From NCBI GenBank assembly GCA_958296385.1, contig OY282494.1:415416-479415 (forward strand): DNA of 64,000 nt. The letters run 5' to 3'. Each line of letters starts with the position of its first letter. Within the stretch, counting starts at the first letter, position 1. The position numbers were made by a program, and so were the translations under genes. Below are positions 3,802 through 34,211 of this stretch, piece after piece. Below the pieces are notes generated by a model, which was not told the origin of the DNA, did no database searches, and saw nothing but the letters and a program-made list of their open reading frames with translations. Source of the stretch: an uncultured Dehalococcoidia bacterium (GTDB lineage Bacteria > Chloroflexota > Dehalococcoidia > Lucifugimonadales > UBA3495).

Positions 3802-4623
3802 TTAGTCGTCGGCCGCCATTCCCGATTTCAGACTTATCCGGGCTATGAACCCGCTGAGCAAGTCGTTAAACACGGCGGCCTGCTCAAAGTGCGTAGAATG
3901 TGCCGCCCCCGGCACCACCTCAAACTGGCTGCCCGGTATCAGCCGGTGCACCGCCTCAATCACGTTGACGGGAAAGATTTTGTCCTCCTCGCCCACCACC
4001 AGCAGCAGGGGCGCCGCCAACCGCGCCAAAGCATCCCCCTGCGGCCCGTCCTCATTCCGAAACAGCCCGGATACCACGTCAACCGGCATAACCGGGTTCA
4101 GCCGCCCAATTGAGCCAAACAGAAACGTCAGCTCCGGCTGGCCGGCGATAAACCCGTCGCTCAGCGCCCGCCGCAAGGGATCATCCGGCGGGCTAACGTC
4201 GTGCAGCAAATGCACCACCGACGCATCGCCGATGCCGCCCGTAGTATCGGCCAGCGCCAATCCCCGCGCCAGCCCCGGCCGGTCCAGCGCCGCCCCCAGG
4301 CAGGTAACGCCCCCCATCGACTGCCCCACCAGCGTTGCCGACTCAACCCCCAGATAATCCAGCAGCGCCAGCAAATCCGCCACAAAAACCGCCGGTTCCG
4401 GCGCCCCGCCCGCCCCGGCCGTCAGCCCCCAACCCCGGTGGTCAAAGGTAATGCAGCGGTAATCGTGCCGAAAGACGGCAACCTGCTGCCACCAGCTCAG
4501 ATGGTTGCCCCCCCGCCCGTGGGCAAACACCATCGCCGGCCCCTCCCCATGGCTTTCGTAGAACATTTCCGTACCGTTGATTGGAGCGTAAGGCATTTTT
4601 GGCATCTCCGGCCGATTTGACAT
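3802..4623 (-). CDS. alpha/beta-fold hydrolase
   Basis: It has an HGRGGNH oxyanion region and a GQSMGG nucleophile elbow. An alternative start at MPYAPING (nt 4596) has a better-placed GGAG. Confidence 0.75.
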   Translation of the reverse strand: MSNRPEMPKMPYAPINGTEMFYESHGEGPAMVFAHGRGGNHLSWWQQVAVFRHDYRCITFDHRGWGLTAGAGGAPEPAVFVADLLALLDYLGVESATLVGQSMGGVTCLGAALDRPGLARGLALADTTGGIGDASVVHLLHDVSPPDDPLRRALSDGFIAGQPELTFLFGSIGRLNPVMPVDVVSGLFRNEDGPQGDALARLAAPLLLVVGEEDKIFPVNVIEAVHRLIPGSQFEVVPGAAHSTHFEQAAVFNDLLSGFIARISLKSGMAADD

Positions 4624-7014: not shown

Positions 7015-8061
7015 TTATTCCGCCCCGCCGGTGCGCCGGGCGTACTCGTCCAAGTCTGCGCTGGCGGCCGTTTCGTCCCCCGCCCCCCGGTTCGCCAGCC
7101 CCCGCCCCCGGTAGGCGTCGTCAAGTCCGGGGTTCAACTCAATTGCGGTACTGAACGCAGTCACCGCATCCCCATACTGCCCCAGCGCCGCCCGCGCGTT
7201 GCCCAGTGCAAGCCACGCCCCGGCCAGCCCGCCATCCCGCTCAATCGCAACGCCATACTGGACGATGGCCTCGGCGTGCCGCCCCAGGTCCGCCAGCGCC
7301 ACGCCCCAATTGTGATACAGCGCAGCCGTGTCCATCCCGCCGGATTGCGCCGCCTCAAAATCACCGATTGCCCCGGCCGGATCGCCGTCGTTGCGCCGCG
7401 CAATCCCCCGGTTATACCACGCGTTGGCAAAGCCCGGCGCCAGCGTAATCGCAACGTCGTAATCGTCGATCGCCGCCGCGTAATCCCGCAAGTCGCTGTG
7501 CAGATTGCCCCGCGCGTAGCGATAATCCGCATCGCCCGGACGCAGCTCGATTGCCCGGTCGTAGTAGCTAAGCGCCGCCTCTCTGTCCCCGGTATCCCGG
7601 TGAGCGATGCCCAGATTATAATTGGCGTTGGAGTGTTCCGGGTTGATGCGGACGCAGGCCAGAAAATCGCCGATTGCCGCCTCGTAGCGCCCCAGCGATA
7701 TGCGCGCCACCCCCCGCGCGTAGTAATAATCGGCGTCGTCCGGTTCCAGCTCAATAGCGGCGGTGTAGTCGCTGATGGCGTCCTCGTAGTAGCCCAGATG
7801 CCGTCGCACCACGCCTCGCGCGTAGTACGGCACCGGATACTGCGGGTCGGCCAGTATCGCCCGCGTGTAGTCGGCAACCGCCCGCGTCAGATCGCCGCCG
7901 TTGCGATACGCCAGCCCCCGGTAGTAATACGCCGGCGCAAAATCATCGTTCAGCGCCAGCGCCCGGTCAAAATCCTGCACCGCCGCCGCCAGCTGCCCCG
8001 CCTGCAACGCCAGCTGCCCCCGCGCCGTGTAGTGAAACTCCGTTGGCAATTCGCTCTGCAT
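7015..8061 (-). CDS. tetratricopeptide-repeat protein
   Basis: About 9 consecutive 34-aa repeats of the form A..Y.RG.A....G....AI.D...AI.L.P. The stop lies 5 nt from the start of the hotdog gene, so the two are probably co-transcribed. Confidence 0.85.
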   Translation of the reverse strand: MQSELPTEFHYTARGQLALQAGQLAAAVQDFDRALALNDDFAPAYYYRGLAYRNGGDLTRAVADYTRAILADPQYPVPYYARGVVRRHLGYYEDAISDYTAAIELEPDDADYYYARGVARISLGRYEAAIGDFLACVRINPEHSNANYNLGIAHRDTGDREAALSYYDRAIELRPGDADYRYARGNLHSDLRDYAAAIDDYDVAITLAPGFANAWYNRGIARRNDGDPAGAIGDFEAAQSGGMDTAALYHNWGVALADLGRHAEAIVQYGVAIERDGGLAGAWLALGNARAALGQYGDAVTAFSTAIELNPGLDDAYRGRGLANRGAGDETAASADLDEYARRTGGAE

Positions 8062-14430: not shown

Positions 14431-14560
14431 CTAATGTCATCCGCACTCCCCCCAATGTCATTCTGAGCGTAGCGAAGAATCTCGATGGCGTAGCAGCGGC
14501 GTTGCCCCCAAAGTGTGCGCTGCCTCATCGAGATTCTTCGCTGCGCTCAGAATGACAGTA
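14431..14560. repeat. palindromic intergenic repeat, copy A
   Basis: AATGTCATTCTGAGCGTAGCGAAGAATCTCGA (from 14454) pairs with TCGAGATTCTTCGCTGCGCTCAGAATGACA (to 14557). It is preceded by the half-site CTAATGTCATCCGC. The same unit occurs at 19051 and 20650. Confidence 0.9.
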
Positions 14561-14695
14561 GGGCGGCCCCAAATAGACCGGGCCCAAAATAGCAGCTCTC
14601 TCTTGACCGTTCTCCGAATTGCGTGTTAGCGTGAGCGTACCGTCACGCCTCAAACCCCCGCCTCAACCCCCGTTGCATCGAATAGAGTTGTTGGT

Positions 14696-16333
14696 ATGGT
14701 CAATGTTCTCGGTTTAGACGCCCAACCCGGCCGCCGGTCGTGGGAGAAGTCCCTTGGCGAGTTCCTGCAAATCGTCACCGCCGCCAACCCGGATCGGGTA
14801 TTCGTAGAGATTGCCGGCCAGCAGGTCACTTACGGCCAGTTCATGTCCCGCTGTCGTGCGGCGGCAACGCTGTTCCAACGGTTAGGCATTGGCCACGGCG
14901 ACCGGGTCTGCATCTTTCTGCCCAACGTGCCCGAAGTCCTCTACACCTGGTTTGGCTTGTCGCTGATTGGCGCCATCACCGTCACCATCAACACCGCCTA
15001 CCGCCGCGACGAGATGGCGTTCATCCTGAACAACGCTGATGCCACGGCCCTGGTCGCCCACGAAACCCTGCTCGACGTAGCCACCCCCGCCGCCGACGTC
15101 GCCCCCTGCGTCCAGCACCGCCTCATCGTCGGCGATAGCTCCACTGCCGATGCCGCCGGCTGGCAATCCTACGCCGCCCTCCTCGCCGACGCACCCCCCC
15201 TTGCCGAGCTGCCCCCGGTGTCCCCCACCGACGTCGCCATGCTGCAATACACTTCCGGCACCACCGGCAACCCCAAGGGCGTAATGGTCACCCATCAGAT
15301 GTACGTTTCGGCCGGCCAGGGTTTCGCCCGCTGGACTGAGGCCACTGCCGACGACCGTTTCTTTACCTGCCTCCCCTACTTTCACGCCAACGCCCAGTAT
15401 TACAGCACCATGGGCACCCTGGCGGCCGGCGCAACGCTGGTGGTTCAAGACCGTTTCAGCGCCTCCCGTTTCTGGCAGCAGGTGCGGGACGCCCGCGCTA
15501 CCGTAGTCAATTTCATCGGCATGATGATGCCCGTCCTCGCCAAGAACGATCCGTCCCCCGACGACGCCGCTAACCCGGTGCGCCTGTTCTACGGTTCCCC
15601 GGCCTTTGCGCCGGAGTTCCTGGCCGACTTTGAGCAGCGGTTCGGCACCGATATTATCGTCGGCTTTGGCATGACCGAAACCTGCTACGGCACCATTGAG
15701 GACATCAAGGGCGAGCGCCGCCCCAACTCGTCGGGCCGCCCCCGCCAGCATCCCGACCCGGCCTTTGCCAACACCGTCCGCATCGTTGACGACGCCGGAC
15801 AGCCCGTCCCAAACGGCCAGCCCGGCGAAATCACCATCCTTAACCCCGCTACCATGCCCGGCTACTGGCGCAACCCGGAGCAGACCGCATTGTCCCTCCG
15901 CGACGGCTGGCTTTTCACCGGCGATTTGGGCTGGCTTGACGACGACGATTACCTCTATTTCGTCGACCGCAAAAAGGACGTCATCCGGCGCCGGGGCGAG
16001 AACATCTCATCCCAGGAAGTCGAGGACGTCATCAAGCGTCACCCGCGCGTTCTCGACTGCGCCATCATCGCCGTCCCCTCCGAGCTTGGCGAGGATGAGA
16101 TGAAAGCCTACGTCACCCCCCGCCCCGGCGAATCGGTGCAGCCCGCGGAAGTAGTGCATTGGTGCGCCGACCACCTGGCCTATTTCAAGGTTCCCCGCTA
16201 CATTGAGGTGCGGGATGAGCTGCCCCGCACCCCCAGCCTGCGCGTCCGCAAAGACGTGCTGCGCCAGGAACGCGCTGACCTCATTGCCGGCTGCTTTGAC
16301 CGGGAGGCCGCCGGCATCCCAATCCGCCGCTAA
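14696..16333 (+). CDS. AMP-dependent acyl-CoA synthetase/ligase
   Basis: It has the YTSGTTGNPKG AMP-binding motif, GFGMTE, and a C-terminal domain with YFVDRKKDVIRRRGENISSQEVE. Confidence 0.85.
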   Translation: MVNVLGLDAQPGRRSWEKSLGEFLQIVTAANPDRVFVEIAGQQVTYGQFMSRCRAAATLFQRLGIGHGDRVCIFLPNVPEVLYTWFGLSLIGAITVTINTAYRRDEMAFILNNADATALVAHETLLDVATPAADVAPCVQHRLIVGDSSTADAAGWQSYAALLADAPPLAELPPVSPTDVAMLQYTSGTTGNPKGVMVTHQMYVSAGQGFARWTEATADDRFFTCLPYFHANAQYYSTMGTLAAGATLVVQDRFSASRFWQQVRDARATVVNFIGMMMPVLAKNDPSPDDAANPVRLFYGSPAFAPEFLADFEQRFGTDIIVGFGMTETCYGTIEDIKGERRPNSSGRPRQHPDPAFANTVRIVDDAGQPVPNGQPGEITILNPATMPGYWRNPEQTALSLRDGWLFTGDLGWLDDDDYLYFVDRKKDVIRRRGENISSQEVEDVIKRHPRVLDCAIIAVPSELGEDEMKAYVTPRPGESVQPAEVVHWCADHLAYFKVPRYIEVRDELPRTPSLRVRKDVLRQERADLIAGCFDREAAGIPIRR

Positions 16334-16363
16334 CACCGCGCCGCCGCTCTGAGGAACACTGCC

Positions 16364-17266
16364 ATGAATAAGATTGAAGCCATATTCCGCCGGGAGCGTT
16401 TGGACAGCGTTAAAGACGGCCTGAGCGCCGCCGGCATTATGGGCCTGACCGTAACCCCGGTCAGCGGGCGCGGCGCCCAGGGCGGCGTCCAGGTAACCAC
16501 CGCCCGCGGCCTCAGCACCCACCACATCGATATGCTGCCCCGAACCAAGCTGGAAGTCGTCGTTGACGACGCCGATACCGACCGCACCATCGACGTCATC
16601 CGCGCCAACGCCATCACCGACCATCCCGGCGACGGCAAGATTTTCATTTACCCGGTAAGCGACGCCATCCGCATCAGCACCGGCGAACGCGGCCCCGGCG
16701 TCCTCGGCGCCCGCACCAGCCCGGAACCCGAATCCCCGCAGCCCGAATCCCCGCAGCCCGAATCCGGCCCGGCAGACGGAGCAGTAATATCCGAACCCTG
16801 CTACTGGCTTTTCAAGTCCGAGCCGTCGTCCTACTCTTACGACGACCTGCTATCCGAGGAAGCCCGCACCGCCGAATGGGATGGCGTGCGCAACTACCAG
16901 GCCCGCAACTTTATGCGCGACGATATGCGCGTTGGCGATTACGTGCTGTTCTACCACAGCAACGCCAAACCCCCCGGCGTAGTTGGCACCGCCCGCATCG
17001 TCCGCACCGCCTACCCCGACGATTCCGCCTGGAACCCCGACTCCCGCTACTACGACGCCAAATCCGACTCCGCCAACCCCACCTGGATGATGGTTGACAT
17101 CCAGGCCGAACGCCGCCTCCCCCGCTACGTCAGCCTCAACGAACTCAAAGCCAACCCCGCCCTGGCCGATATGCTGGTAACCAAACGCGGCCAGCGCCTC
17201 TCCATCCAGCCCGTAACCCCCGCCGAATGGGCCGAAGTGCTGGCCATGGCCGAGCGCAGCGCCTGA
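16364..17266 (+). CDS. fusion protein: PII (GlnB-like) signal-transduction domain plus EVE (PUA-like) domain
   Basis: Residues 1-113 align colinearly with GlnB/GlnK (MNKIEAIFRRERLDSVKDGL...GDGKIFIYPVSDAIRISTGERG). A PEPESPQPESPQPE linker follows. The C-terminus has the EVE hallmarks YWLFKSEP and WDGVRNYQARNFMRDDMRVGDYVLFYHS. Confidence 0.75.
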   Translation: MNKIEAIFRRERLDSVKDGLSAAGIMGLTVTPVSGRGAQGGVQVTTARGLSTHHIDMLPRTKLEVVVDDADTDRTIDVIRANAITDHPGDGKIFIYPVSDAIRISTGERGPGVLGARTSPEPESPQPESPQPESGPADGAVISEPCYWLFKSEPSSYSYDDLLSEEARTAEWDGVRNYQARNFMRDDMRVGDYVLFYHSNAKPPGVVGTARIVRTAYPDDSAWNPDSRYYDAKSDSANPTWMMVDIQAERRLPRYVSLNELKANPALADMLVTKRGQRLSIQPVTPAEWAEVLAMAERSA

Positions 17267-19028: not shown

Positions 19029-19156
19029 GTTGTCATTCTACCCCCCCCCCAATGTCATTCTGAGCGCAGCGAAGAATCTCGATGGCGTAGCAGCGGCCTT
19101 GCCCCCAAAGTCTCCGCTGCCTCGTCGAGATTCTTCACTGCGCTCAGAATGACAAC
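19029..19156. repeat. palindromic intergenic repeat, copy B
   Basis: The left arm starts at 19051 (AATGTCATTCTGAGCGCAGCGAAGAATCTCGA) and the right arm ends at 19154. The apical segment is GCAGCGGCCTTGCCCCCAAAGTCTCCGCTGC. Confidence 0.9.
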
Positions 19157-20590: not shown

Positions 20591-20805
20591 GGCAGCGTTC
20601 CGTTTTAGGCGGTTTAGTTTCCCTAATGTCATTCCGCCCCTCTCCCCCCAATGTCATTCTGAGCGCAGCGAAGAATCTCGAAAGCGTAGCAACGGCGTTA
20701 CCCTCAAAGTGTGCCCTACGTCATCGAGATTCTTCGCTGCGCTCAGAACGACATTCGGAATGGCCGGCGGTGGGCTGATTAAACCACCTAAAACGCAACG
20801 CTGCC
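20591..20805. repeat. palindromic intergenic repeat, copy C, nested inside a second outer inverted repeat
   Basis: The inner hairpin spans 20650-20753. The outer arms are GGCAGCGTTCCGTTTTAGGCGGTTTAG (20591-20617) and TTAAACCACCTAAAACGCAACGCTGCC (20779-20805), complementary at 24 of 27 positions. Confidence 0.85.
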
Positions 20806-26186: not shown

Positions 26187-26343
26187 CCCAAATCTCCGGC
26201 TGGACTATCGTCTGATTGATGGATCGTCTGATTGACGGCTCGTTATTTGACGGCTTGCCATCGGCTGGTTGTCAACATAACACCCCACCCAACGCCCCCC
26301 CGATGGTAGCACACCCCACCCCCCTTGCCTACCAAACCCACCC

Positions 26344-26460
26344 AATGCCATTCTGATCACCGCGCAGAACCCCAACGCCGCCGCAGCCCCCTTGCCCCCA
26401 AAGACACACCGAGGGGGTCTGGGGGAAATCATTTCCCCCAGCGTCCCCCCCTTACTCCCC
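26344..26460. repeat. variant intergenic repeat, copy D (diverged left arm plus GGGGGAAATCATTTCCCCC hairpin module)
   Basis: AATGCCATTCTGATCAC...GCAGCCCCCTTGCCCCCAAAG is followed by ACACACCGAGGGGGTCTGGGGGAAATCATTTCCCCCAGCGTC (hairpin at 26419-26441). This module is nearly identical to 38361-38405. Confidence 0.8.
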
Positions 26461-34114: not shown

Positions 34115-34211
34115 TGGCGGGAGTGCGAGGGAGTCGAACCCACCTACCCCGCTCGTCACGAGGCATAACGGATTTGAAGTCCGCAAGAGCCACCGGGCCC
34201 CATCCACTCCC
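34115..34211 (-). tRNA. selC: tRNA-Sec (anticodon UCA), CCA encoded
   Basis: The minus-strand sequence is GGGAGTGG-AT-GGGGCC-CGGT-GGCTCT-T-GCGGA-CTTCAAA-TCCGT-(long variable arm)-GTGGG-TTCGACT-CCCTC-GCACTCCC-G-CCA. It has an 8/5 acceptor/T architecture and a 6-bp D stem with a 4-nt loop. The anticodon loop, T loop and D loop are identical to E. coli selC as I recall it. One G-G and one T-T mismatch are noted. Confidence 0.85.

What the first reader, a model, noticed from the sequence alone, without database searches (positions are those of the whole stretch)
16364..17266. PII signal-transduction domain fused to an EVE (PUA-like) domain
A single uninterrupted 300-aa ORF joins two domains through a PEPESPQPESPQPE linker. 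The first is a complete GlnB/GlnK-like PII domain that retains the ATP-site motif GDGKIF but has a T-loop (GRGAQGGVQVTTARGLSTHH) without the Tyr used for uridylylation in enterobacterial PII. The second is a complete EVE domain (YWLFKSEP, WDGVRNYQARNF, GDYVLFYHS). The linker is encoded by a 15-nt tandem repeat at about 16719-16767. PII proteins sense ATP/ADP/2-oxoglutarate and act through their T-loops. EVE domains belong to the PUA-like superfamily and are proposed readers of modified bases in nucleic acids. I am not aware of this combination being described. It would couple metabolic status to recognition of modified DNA or RNA, or the reverse.
Basis: partly seen in the sequence, partly recalled or inferred. 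Interest (0 to 1): 0.65.

Follow-up and report, generated by a model that had tools for sequence, protein, structure and literature searches.

The report
Lineage-specific PII–EVE gene fusion
In one uncultured sponge-associated Dehalococcoidia species, two neighbouring genes (a PII-type metabolic sensor and an EVE-type reader of modified bases) have merged into one protein; they remain separate genes in all 33 related loci examined, and the sensor half of the merged protein is evolving unusually fast, so the fusion is real but hints at a possible PII–EVE partnership rather than marking a widespread new signalling protein.

Summary
Window 16364-17266 (+) is one 300-aa ORF with a P-II domain (residues 1-108, E 7e-25), a ~40-residue Pro/Glu/Ser linker containing a perfect 15-nt tandem repeat, and an EVE domain (147-295, E 2e-53).

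It is not an assembly error. The identical protein lies on 9 contigs from two assemblies, one of them a distinct haplotype.

The architecture is a one-off. In 33 related loci from sponge-associated Dehalococcoidia, a 114-aa PII gene with its own stop and an EVE gene with its own ATG are separate neighbours downstream of an acyl-CoA ligase gene. In the window the stop has become GGC and the EVE start ATG has become ATA. Searches of 5.8 billion and 1.84 billion proteins found no other genuine PII–EVE fusion.

The EVE half is conserved: 2 changes at 96 clade-invariant positions. The PII half is 4-5 times accelerated (15 of 73), with substitutions at near-universal effector-site residues (E. coli numbering P10R, K58R, G84D, R103S).

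The most likely reading is a recent stop-loss fusion in which EVE function is kept and PII sensing is relaxed or altered. The conserved pairing of a non-amtB PII with EVE is undescribed and is the more interesting lead. Interest is moderate.

The parts
14696..16333 (+). Acyl-CoA ligase gene (AMP-binding, 545 aa). It is the conserved upstream neighbour and probably the first gene of the same operon, ending 30 nt before the fusion's start codon.
   Evidence: NCBIfam ATP-dependent acyl-CoA ligase, E 1e-132, below the equivalog cut-off. Present directly upstream of PII or EVE in all 52 Dehalococcoidia loci examined.
16351..16356 (+). Shine-Dalgarno-like GAGGAA, 7 nt upstream of the ATG at 16364.
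   Evidence: Read directly from the sequence.
16364..16705 (+). PII (GlnB/GlnK-family) domain, residues 1-114, corresponding to the whole 114-aa stand-alone PII gene of relatives.
   Evidence: Pfam PF00543, E 7e-25. Closest solved structure is GlnK1 of Methanothermococcus thermolithotrophicus, E 2e-29. AlphaFold core pLDDT is about 90, and Foldseek TM-score normalised to target is about 0.7 to PII structures. Shows accelerated substitution.
16706..16708 (+). GGC codon (Gly115) at the position where all relatives have the PII stop codon.
   Evidence: DNA alignments A1 and A5. PII ORF ends in relatives are listed.
16706..16801 (+). Linker, residues 115-146 (GARTSPEPESPQPESPQPESGPADGAVISEPC). This is the former intergenic spacer plus the first codons of the old EVE gene.
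   Evidence: GC at codon position 3 is 0.69 here against 0.82-0.84 in both domains. AlphaFold pLDDT is below 50 for residues 100-143. No homologous coding sequence exists in relatives.
16727..16765 (+). In-frame 15-nt tandem repeat (2.6 copies, 100% identical) encoding PESPQ units.
   Evidence: Tandem Repeats Finder score 78.
16778..16789 (+). Relic of the EVE gene's own translation start. GGAG is retained at 16778-16781, followed by ATA (Ile142, 16787-16789) where relatives have ATG.
   Evidence: Alignments. Relatives' EVE genes start MPEPRYWLFKSEP. There is no in-frame ATG, GTG or TTG in the linker.
16802..17266 (+). EVE (PUA-like, THYN1-type) domain, residues 147-300, plus the stop codon.
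   Evidence: Pfam PF01878, E 2e-53. PDB hits 2G2X (E 3e-41) and human THYN1 (E 3e-34). Foldseek TM-score normalised to target is 0.79-0.89, including THYN1 bound to 5mC DNA (5J3E). Only 2 of 96 clade-invariant positions are changed.

Best explanation
This is a genuine, evolutionarily young fusion of two neighbouring genes, found so far in one species-level lineage of sponge-associated Dehalococcoidia. The ancestral state, kept in all sampled relatives, is an operon-like row: acyl-CoA ligase, then a 114-aa 'orphan' PII paralogue not linked to amtB, then a stand-alone housekeeping-type (THYN1-like) EVE protein. In the window's lineage three things happened. The PII stop codon was lost. The spacer stayed open and in frame and was lengthened by a 15-nt in-frame duplication. 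The EVE start ATG mutated to ATA. The EVE domain can therefore now be made efficiently only as the C-terminal part of the PII ORF (inferred). The product is a PII-fold domain, presumably still trimerising (inferred), joined by a disordered linker of about 40 residues to an intact EVE domain. The EVE half remains under purifying selection and presumably still binds a modified base in RNA or DNA (inferred from family membership). The PII half is under relaxed or changed constraint. It keeps the fold and the B-loop ATP motif but has lost K58 and R103 and altered G84 and P10, so canonical Mg-ATP/2-oxoglutarate sensing is probably weakened or altered (inferred). The protein most likely works mainly as an EVE reader carried on a PII scaffold and start codon, not as a fully competent metabolic switch.
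For: The genes are separate in 31 related loci, each with a PII stop and an EVE ATG, usually in different frames, and in two closer relatives, L095 and L096. Stop to GGC and ATG to ATA are seen in the alignments. The exact fusion lies on 9 contigs from 2 assemblies, one a distinct haplotype. The linker lacks the coding GC3 signature and is predicted disordered; pTM of 0.52 gives no confident inter-domain packing. PII has 15 of 73 clade-invariant columns changed, against 0-2 in each relative; EVE has 2 of 96 (Fisher p = 1e-4). The relative-rate test gives 19-23 window-specific versus 3-7 sister-specific changes in all 9 triplets (p 9e-5 to 0.03), while ligase, TPP enzyme and thiolase are mostly symmetric. 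The changed residues include positions conserved in 88-98% of 111 wider PII homologues. Four of 18 changes fall on columns that are at least 95% conserved, against 6.3 expected for random placement. K58 binds 2-oxoglutarate or Q39 (PMC3198391). PII is dispensable at this locus: 21 further species have ligase followed by EVE with no PII.
Against: There are no expression or protein data. PII pairwise dN/dS of window versus relatives is 0.20, against 0.08 among relatives, and 0.33 against the nearest relative. It is still below 1, so the PII half is not evolving freely and may have a modified function. A crude parsimony split of synonymous and non-synonymous changes by branch could not separate PII from EVE. 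K to R is conservative and might still bind a carboxylate. The order of the three mutational events is unknown. Trimerisation with a C-terminal extension was not tested.
Confidence: 0.6

Rival explanations
1. Fully functional sensor-reader. The PII trimer senses ATP/ADP/2-oxoglutarate and, through its T-loops, controls the nucleic-acid binding of the three tethered EVE domains. The substitutions in PII would be adaptive retuning after the tether replaced regulated binding.
For: PII and EVE are same-strand neighbours in 33 related loci, including lineages with only about 55% PII identity (L022, L040, L044). This PII is a distinct 114-aa paralogue with a T-loop 1-2 residues longer than in other PII proteins and is never next to amtB. 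By Rosetta-stone logic, fused proteins often mark interacting partners. The B-loop motif, Q39 and R101 are kept. dN/dS is below 1. PII is known to sequester a small beta-barrel adaptor, PipX (PMC6243067).
Against: Only one lineage has the fusion. K58R, R103S, G84D and P10R hit near-universal effector-site or fold positions. The changes fall on conserved columns about as often as chance predicts. AlphaFold gives no confident domain-domain packing, but it was run as a monomer with an unpaired alignment, so this is weak evidence.
Confidence: 0.22
2. Accidental fusion without a PII–EVE relationship. The PII paralogue serves another target, for example the upstream acyl-CoA ligase or acetyl-CoA metabolism, and merely sits next to EVE. 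A stop-loss that happened to be in frame joined two unrelated neighbours and was tolerated.
For: The more widespread adjacency is ligase followed by EVE, seen in all 52 loci. PII lies between them in only some branches. Several relatives have 100-250 nt spacers with a REP-like hairpin between PII and EVE. An in-frame, stop-free read-through of about 90 nt of GC-rich spacer is not improbable (own estimate of roughly 0.2). PII proteins are known to regulate acetyl-CoA carboxylase via BCCP (PMC5080355).
Against: The adjacency persists across deep branches of the group. Loss of the EVE ATG makes EVE expression depend on the fusion, yet EVE stays conserved, so the fused product is at least compatible with EVE function.
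Confidence: 0.15
3. Sequencing or assembly artefact: a false indel merging two genes.
For: The architecture is unique to this organism.
Against: The same ORF lies on 9 contigs from 2 assemblies, including a haplotype with 11 SNPs nearby. Three independent differences from relatives are involved (stop to GGC, ATG to ATA, 15-nt duplication), and no single-base change restores the two-gene state.
Confidence: 0.02

Closest known systems
Canonical PII proteins GlnB/GlnK (closest solved: GlnK1 of Methanothermococcus thermolithotrophicus 7P4V and M. jannaschii MJ0059 2J9C/7P52)
   Same: Same fold and length. Contains a T-loop, Q39, the B-loop motif T-x3-G-D-G-K-I-F and R101. About 50% identity.
   Different: Fused at its C-terminus to another domain. 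K58R, R103S, G84D and P10R. T-loop is two residues longer than in the archaeal GlnK1 proteins. Not linked to amtB, whereas the next-closest Dehalococcoidia PIIs (113 aa, at most 61% identity) are. Scores far below the NCBIfam GlnB/GlnK equivalog cut-offs.
Stand-alone THYN1-like EVE proteins (P. putida PP5205 2G2X, P. syringae PSPTO5229 2EVE, human THYN1 5J3E)
   Same: Full-length EVE domain with 42-47% identity and TM-score normalised to target of 0.79-0.89. High cross-phylum conservation, as in the 'slow-evolving' class of Bell et al. 2020.
   Different: Has lost its own start codon and is expressed as the C-terminal domain of a PII ORF. Its genomic context (acyl-CoA ligase, PII) is not among those catalogued for EVE.
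PII–PipX complex of cyanobacteria
   Same: A PII trimer holds three copies of a small beta-barrel (Tudor-like) adaptor between its T-loops in an effector-dependent way (PMC6243067). This is the best mechanistic analogy for a PII–EVE partnership.
   Different: PipX is unrelated to EVE, is a separate protein, and acts on a transcription factor. No PII–EVE interaction has been shown.
PII proteins with C-terminal extensions (plant PII Q-loop)
   Same: Shows that the PII C-terminus tolerates added segments that modify sensing (PMC6243067).
   Different: Those extensions are short regulatory segments, not a linker plus an independent 150-residue domain.
Known EVE fusion proteins (EVE-HNH such as VcaM4I, GNAT-EVE, MmcQ/YjbR-EVE, PLD-EVE)
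   Same: An EVE domain joined to a second functional module.
   Different: Those partners are nucleases, acetyltransferases or DNA mimics in defence or toxin-antitoxin contexts, with fast-evolving EVE domains. Here the partner is a signal-transduction domain and the EVE is of the conserved type.

Membership tests
PII signal-transduction family (Pfam PF00543) | Profile match above the curated threshold over the full domain | tested here: met
   87.8 bits against a cut-off of 25, profile positions 1-102 of 102.
PII signal-transduction family (Pfam PF00543) | Double beta-alpha-beta ferredoxin-like fold with a protruding T-loop | tested here: met
   The AlphaFold model has the secondary-structure order E2-9, H10-22, E28-33, T-loop, E60-67, H69-83, E92-97. 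Foldseek probability is 1.0 and TM-score normalised to target about 0.7 to PII structures.
PII signal-transduction family (Pfam PF00543) | B-loop signature [ST]-x3-G-[DY]-G-[KR]-[IV]-[FW]-[LIVM] (PROSITE PS00638, recalled from memory) | tested here: met
   T-DHP-G-D-G-K-I-F-I read from the translation. However, the residue after T (E. coli G84) is D, against G in 109 of 111 homologues.
PII signal-transduction family (Pfam PF00543) | Effector-site residues Q39, K58, R101 and R103 (E. coli numbering) | tested here: not met
   Q39 and R101 are present. K58 is R (K in 98 of 111 homologues, R in 1). R103 is S (R in 108 of 111). The role of K58 is described in PMC3198391.
PII signal-transduction family (Pfam PF00543) | Homotrimer | not testable with these tools
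   Only a monomer could be modelled.
GlnB/GlnK equivalogs (NCBIfam NF008111, NF007946) | Score above the equivalog cut-off | tested here: not met
   75 bits against 202, and 66 bits against 181.
GlnK subfamily | Genetic linkage to the ammonium transporter gene amtB | tested here: not met
   No Amt homologue in the 64-kb window or within about 8 kb of any PII–EVE locus. The nearest other PIIs are amtB-linked.
GlnD-modified PII | Tyr51 in the T-loop | tested here: not met
   His at the aligned position. Relatives have Y, F or V. GlnD is restricted mainly to Proteobacteria and Actinobacteria.
EVE domain (Pfam PF01878, PUA-like) | Profile match above the threshold over the full domain | tested here: met
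   181 bits against a cut-off of 23, profile positions 2-145 of 145.
EVE domain (Pfam PF01878, PUA-like) | PUA-like beta-barrel fold as in 2EVE and THYN1 | tested here: met
   Foldseek E 2e-18, TM-score normalised to target 0.79-0.89, rmsd 2.1-2.6 Å.
EVE domain (Pfam PF01878, PUA-like) | Binding of a modified base in DNA or RNA | not testable with these tools
   Inferred only from homology to THYN1 bound to 5mC DNA (5J3E).
Slow-evolving (housekeeping) EVE class of Bell et al. 2020 | High sequence conservation across phyla and a non-defence context | tested here: inconclusive
   51-64% identity to EVE proteins of Planctomycetota, Acidobacteriota and Thermoplasmatota. No placement in their clusters was made. 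Defence-like cargo lies downstream of EVE in some relatives.
Rosetta-stone gene fusion | The two parts exist as separate genes in other genomes | tested here: met
   Separate in 33 related loci.

The most novel reading that the evidence does not exclude
The orphan 114-aa PII paralogue and the housekeeping-type EVE protein form a previously unrecognised PII output module in sponge-associated Dehalococcoidia. PII would bind EVE in an ATP/ADP/2-oxoglutarate-dependent way and so couple carbon, nitrogen and energy status to recognition of a modified base in RNA or DNA. The window's fusion would be the Rosetta stone that reveals this partnership.
Probability: 0.2. Interest if true: 0.7.

Novelty: new variant of a known kind. 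Interest (0 to 1): 0.4.

Why it matters
PII proteins act only by binding partner proteins, and new partners widen the known reach of carbon, nitrogen and energy signalling. The cellular role of conserved stand-alone EVE/THYN1 proteins is still unknown. A PII paralogue kept next to EVE in more than 30 species, and fused to it in one, gives a concrete hypothesis that can be tested cheaply: does PII bind EVE, and is the binding effector-dependent? The case also carries a caution. A striking two-domain ORF can be a young, single-lineage stop-loss event in which one half is losing constraint, so the architecture alone should not be read as a functional design.

Tried and rejected
1. Assembly artefact: rejected.

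2. A second fusion in the Geodia barretti record (P0001, annotated with both Pfam domains): rejected. It is a eukaryote-style spliced gene model laid over a bacterial contig. In the DNA (L001) the PII gene has its own stop, and the EVE reading frame is broken.

3. Other PII–EVE fusions:
- The full-length search of 5.8 billion proteins returned only EVE-only proteins plus P0001.
- The exhaustive HMMER search of 1.84 billion representatives gave a best hit of 190 bits, EVE only.
- Pfam scans of 20 long or two-stretch hits showed EVE alone, or EVE with DUF5655 or a PLD domain.
- A PII-only search returned only 112-116-aa stand-alone proteins.

4. An exact-match scan of JGI metagenome contigs with the linker sequence gave 0 hits.

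5. amtB linkage: none found.

6. An orthology link between the window's ligase and the ligase upstream of amtB-glnK in L090: rejected, only 31% identity.

7. Assigning synonymous and non-synonymous changes to branches by parsimony was uninformative. Pairwise dN/dS shows only a moderate rise.

8. The PII tree was too poorly resolved to say whether the L022/L040/L044 PIIs share the EVE-adjacent origin with the main clade.

9. MAFFT repeatedly misaligned the single-domain homologues on the two-domain query (A2, A3). Tiling fragments of the window gave a usable but imperfect alignment (A4), so low pLDDT at residues 100-112 and 147-170 may be partly technical.

10. Rfam found no RNA element near the locus. 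The promoter and terminator scan showed nothing informative.

Full report
**1. Observation**

Window 16364-17266 (+) is a single ATG-initiated ORF of 300 codons.
- Pfam places a complete P-II domain at residues 1-108 (E 7e-25) and a complete EVE domain at 147-295 (E 2e-53).
- NCBIfam sees the N-terminal part only as a distant relative of the GlnB/GlnK equivalogs, far below their cut-offs.
- A perfect 15-nt tandem repeat (2.6 copies, 16727-16765) encodes the PESPQ units of the linker.
- An AlphaFold2 model shows two well-folded domains. The PII core has pLDDT around 90, most of EVE is at 87-96, residues 100-143 are below 50, and pTM is 0.52, so the two domains are not confidently packed against each other.
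- Foldseek matches the EVE part to 2G2X, 2EVE and human THYN1 bound to 5mC DNA (TM-score normalised to target 0.79-0.89). It matches the PII part to GlnK and PII structures (about 0.7). No PDB chain covers both domains (sequence-level hits).

**2. Is the fusion real?**

The exact 300-aa protein is encoded on 9 contigs in the public collection. These come from two ENA assemblies, one of which has hifiasm-style 'ptg' contig names. Four of the five loci fetched are identical to the window. The fifth (L083) differs at 11 positions, all in the thiolase gene, so it is a separate haplotype that carries the same fusion. A sequencing artefact is very unlikely.

**3. What relatives show**

A scan of one genome per GTDB species found the homologous locus in many Dehalococcoidia MAGs. 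Several come from sponge metagenomes, and the Geodia barretti holobiont assembly also has it.

In all 31 loci that contain both parts, they are two genes:
- a 114-aa (115 aa in L040) PII ending in a stop codon (...RIRTGEHGxDAV* in the main clade);
- an EVE gene starting at its own ATG (MPEPRYWLFKSEP in the main clade; MAERKYWLFKSEP or similar in L022/L040/L044).

The two genes are separated by about 10-250 nt and are usually in different frames. Two closer relatives found through the PII search (L095, L096) have the same two-gene layout. The only database protein annotated with both domains, P0001, is a spliced eukaryote-type gene model over two bacterial genes.

At the DNA level the window differs in three ways:
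- GGC stands where relatives have the stop codon.
- ATA stands where they have the EVE ATG, with the GGAG in front retained.
- There is no in-frame ATG, GTG or TTG in the linker.

The linker lacks the third-position GC excess of the flanking coding sequence (0.69 against 0.82-0.84), as expected for recently recruited spacer. The 100% identity of the repeat copies indicates a very recent duplication.

**4. How widespread is the fusion?**

- A search of 5.8 billion proteins with the full protein returned EVE-only proteins apart from P0001.
- An exhaustive HMMER search of 1.84 billion cluster representatives gave a best score of 190 bits, from an EVE-only protein. A true fusion would score higher.
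- Twenty longer or two-stretch hits carried EVE alone or with other domains.
- A search with the PII part returned only stand-alone PII proteins of 112-116 aa.

The architecture is therefore known from one species-level lineage only.

**5. Context**

The conserved order is acyl-CoA ligase, then PII, then EVE, on one strand. The ligase stop lies about 30 nt before the PII start. Twenty-one further Dehalococcoidia/SAR202 species have the ligase followed directly by EVE with no PII. The PII-bearing loci form one large clade plus L040 and the L022/L044 pair.

The PII next to EVE in the main clade is a distinct group:
- It shares 73-78% identity with the window's PII. The next-best PII proteins drop to 61% or less.
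- Three of those next-best proteins were checked and all sit beside amtB.
- No Amt gene lies near any PII–EVE locus.

This is therefore an 'orphan' PII paralogue. Whether the PIIs of L022, L040 and L044 share its origin could not be resolved.

**6. Unequal evolution of the two halves**

| Measure | PII half | EVE half |
|---|---|---|
| Window changes at columns invariant in 27 close relatives | 15 of 73 | 2 of 96 |
| Same count for any single relative (leave-one-out) | 0-2 | 0-3 |
| Pairwise dN/dS, window versus relatives | 0.20 | 0.12 |
| Pairwise dN/dS among relatives | 0.08 | 0.07 |

- The difference between the halves at invariant columns gives Fisher p = 1e-4.
- Tajima-type relative-rate tests give 19-23 window-specific against 3-7 sister-specific changes for PII in all nine triplets (p 9e-5 to 0.03). 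The ligase, TPP enzyme and thiolase, and most EVE triplets, are symmetric; most glyoxalase triplets are too, the exceptions running toward the sister lineage L011.
- Measured against 111 more distant PII proteins, the window's changes include P10R (P in 108), G84D (G in 109), R103S (R in 108) and K58R (K in 98, R in 1), in E. coli numbering.
- Four of 18 lineage-specific changes fall on columns that are at least 95% conserved, against 6.3 expected if changes fell at random.
- PII dN/dS against the nearest relative, L011, is 0.33. It remains below 1.

K58 hydrogen-bonds 2-oxoglutarate, or Q39 in the ADP state (PMC3198391). From general knowledge of PII structures, R103 contacts the ATP phosphates.

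The PII half is thus under strongly relaxed or altered constraint, while the EVE half is conserved. Because EVE has lost its own start codon, selection for EVE expression alone would keep the PII reading frame open. The intact frame therefore does not prove that PII still functions.

**7. Mechanism**

Shown here:
- a stop-loss fusion of adjacent genes;
- a disordered linker derived from the spacer;
- a conserved EVE half;
- a fast-evolving PII half with effector-site substitutions.

Inferred: the product is probably a PII-fold trimer displaying three EVE domains on flexible tethers. EVE would keep its presumed role of reading a modified base, by homology to THYN1. Canonical Mg-ATP/2-oxoglutarate sensing would be weakened or retuned.

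Three rivals remain:
- A fully functional sensor-reader. The conserved gene pair and the analogy with PII–PipX support it. The effector-site changes and the uniqueness of the fusion count against it.
- An accidental fusion of unrelated neighbours, in which PII serves another target such as the acyl-CoA ligase or acetyl-CoA metabolism (PII–BCCP precedent).
- An assembly artefact, which is effectively excluded.

**8. Comparison with known systems and novelty**

Both domains are ordinary members of well-known families. The fused PII fails the effector-residue, amtB-linkage and equivalog tests for a canonical GlnB/GlnK. The Bell-Wolf-Koonin census of EVE contexts does not mention PII, and no paper in the searched library contains both 'EVE domain' and 'PII'.

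I rate this a new variant of a known kind. The fusion is a single-lineage curiosity. The conserved orphan-PII/EVE gene pair is an undescribed association that is modestly interesting and testable. Interest 0.4. The most novel reading not excluded is a new PII output acting on a modified-base reader, with probability about 0.2.

Noticed in passing
window 14450-14563, 19047-19154, 20646-20758 (partial match at 26338-26403): Three copies (91-100% identical) of a palindromic element of about 110 nt. It folds into a near-perfect long hairpin (-70 to -78 kcal/mol) and sits in intergenic regions flanking this gene cluster. When translated it produces the spurious 'CHSERSEESR / FFAALRMT' ORFs. It looks MITE- or REP-like.
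   Followed up: partly
L006, L012, L016, L017, L019, L027, L095, L096, L009, L023, L008: the region between the EVE stop and the convergent TPP-enzyme gene: Directly downstream of EVE, many relatives carry variable inserted cargo with low GC3. Examples are a PD-T4-4-like AAA_15/AAA_21 ATPase with small partner ORFs, a type III-like methylase plus ResIII helicase (whose start overlaps the EVE stop in L009), a UvrD helicase, and formate-THF ligase. This may be a defence or integration hot spot, or a link between stand-alone EVE and restriction systems as noted by Bell et al. The window has no such insert.
   Followed up: partly
L030-L039, L041-L043, L045-L051, L057 (ligase end to EVE start, about 7830-8040): In 21 further Dehalococcoidia/SAR202 species the EVE gene directly follows the orthologous acyl-CoA ligase gene (65-70% identity) with no PII between them. 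The ligase-EVE adjacency is therefore more widely conserved than the PII–EVE one and is not among the published EVE contexts.
   Followed up: partly
PII–EVE spacers of L005, L006, L009, L012, L014, L016, L019, L020, L025, L026, L027, L096: A short REP-like hairpin, GTCATTCC(C/G/T)GCGAAAGC(G/C/A)GGAATCC (translating as 'VIPAKAGIQ' or 'SFPRKRES'), has inserted between PII and EVE in many relatives. It accounts for the long spacers.
   Followed up: no
L001 3968-4860 (Geodia barretti assembly GCA_030341885.1, contig CASHTH010003248.1): A bacterial symbiont contig is annotated as sponge DNA. A spliced gene model (P0001) joins the PII gene to the 3' half of EVE. The EVE reading frame is also broken near 4555-4570, from either a frameshift or an assembly error.
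   Followed up: partly
P0286, P0293, P0303, P0305, P0308, P0314 (loci L087-L089): A group of Dehalococcoidia PII proteins encoded divergently from amtB has NMLHQLK in place of DMLPKxK and (E/D)DGKIF in place of GDGKIF. They naturally lack K58 and the B-loop Gly87, so non-canonical PII effector sites occur repeatedly in this class.
   Followed up: no
window 34115-34211 (-): A tRNA-Sec gene (anticodon TCA; Rfam 66 bits) indicates that this organism uses selenocysteine.
   Followed up: no
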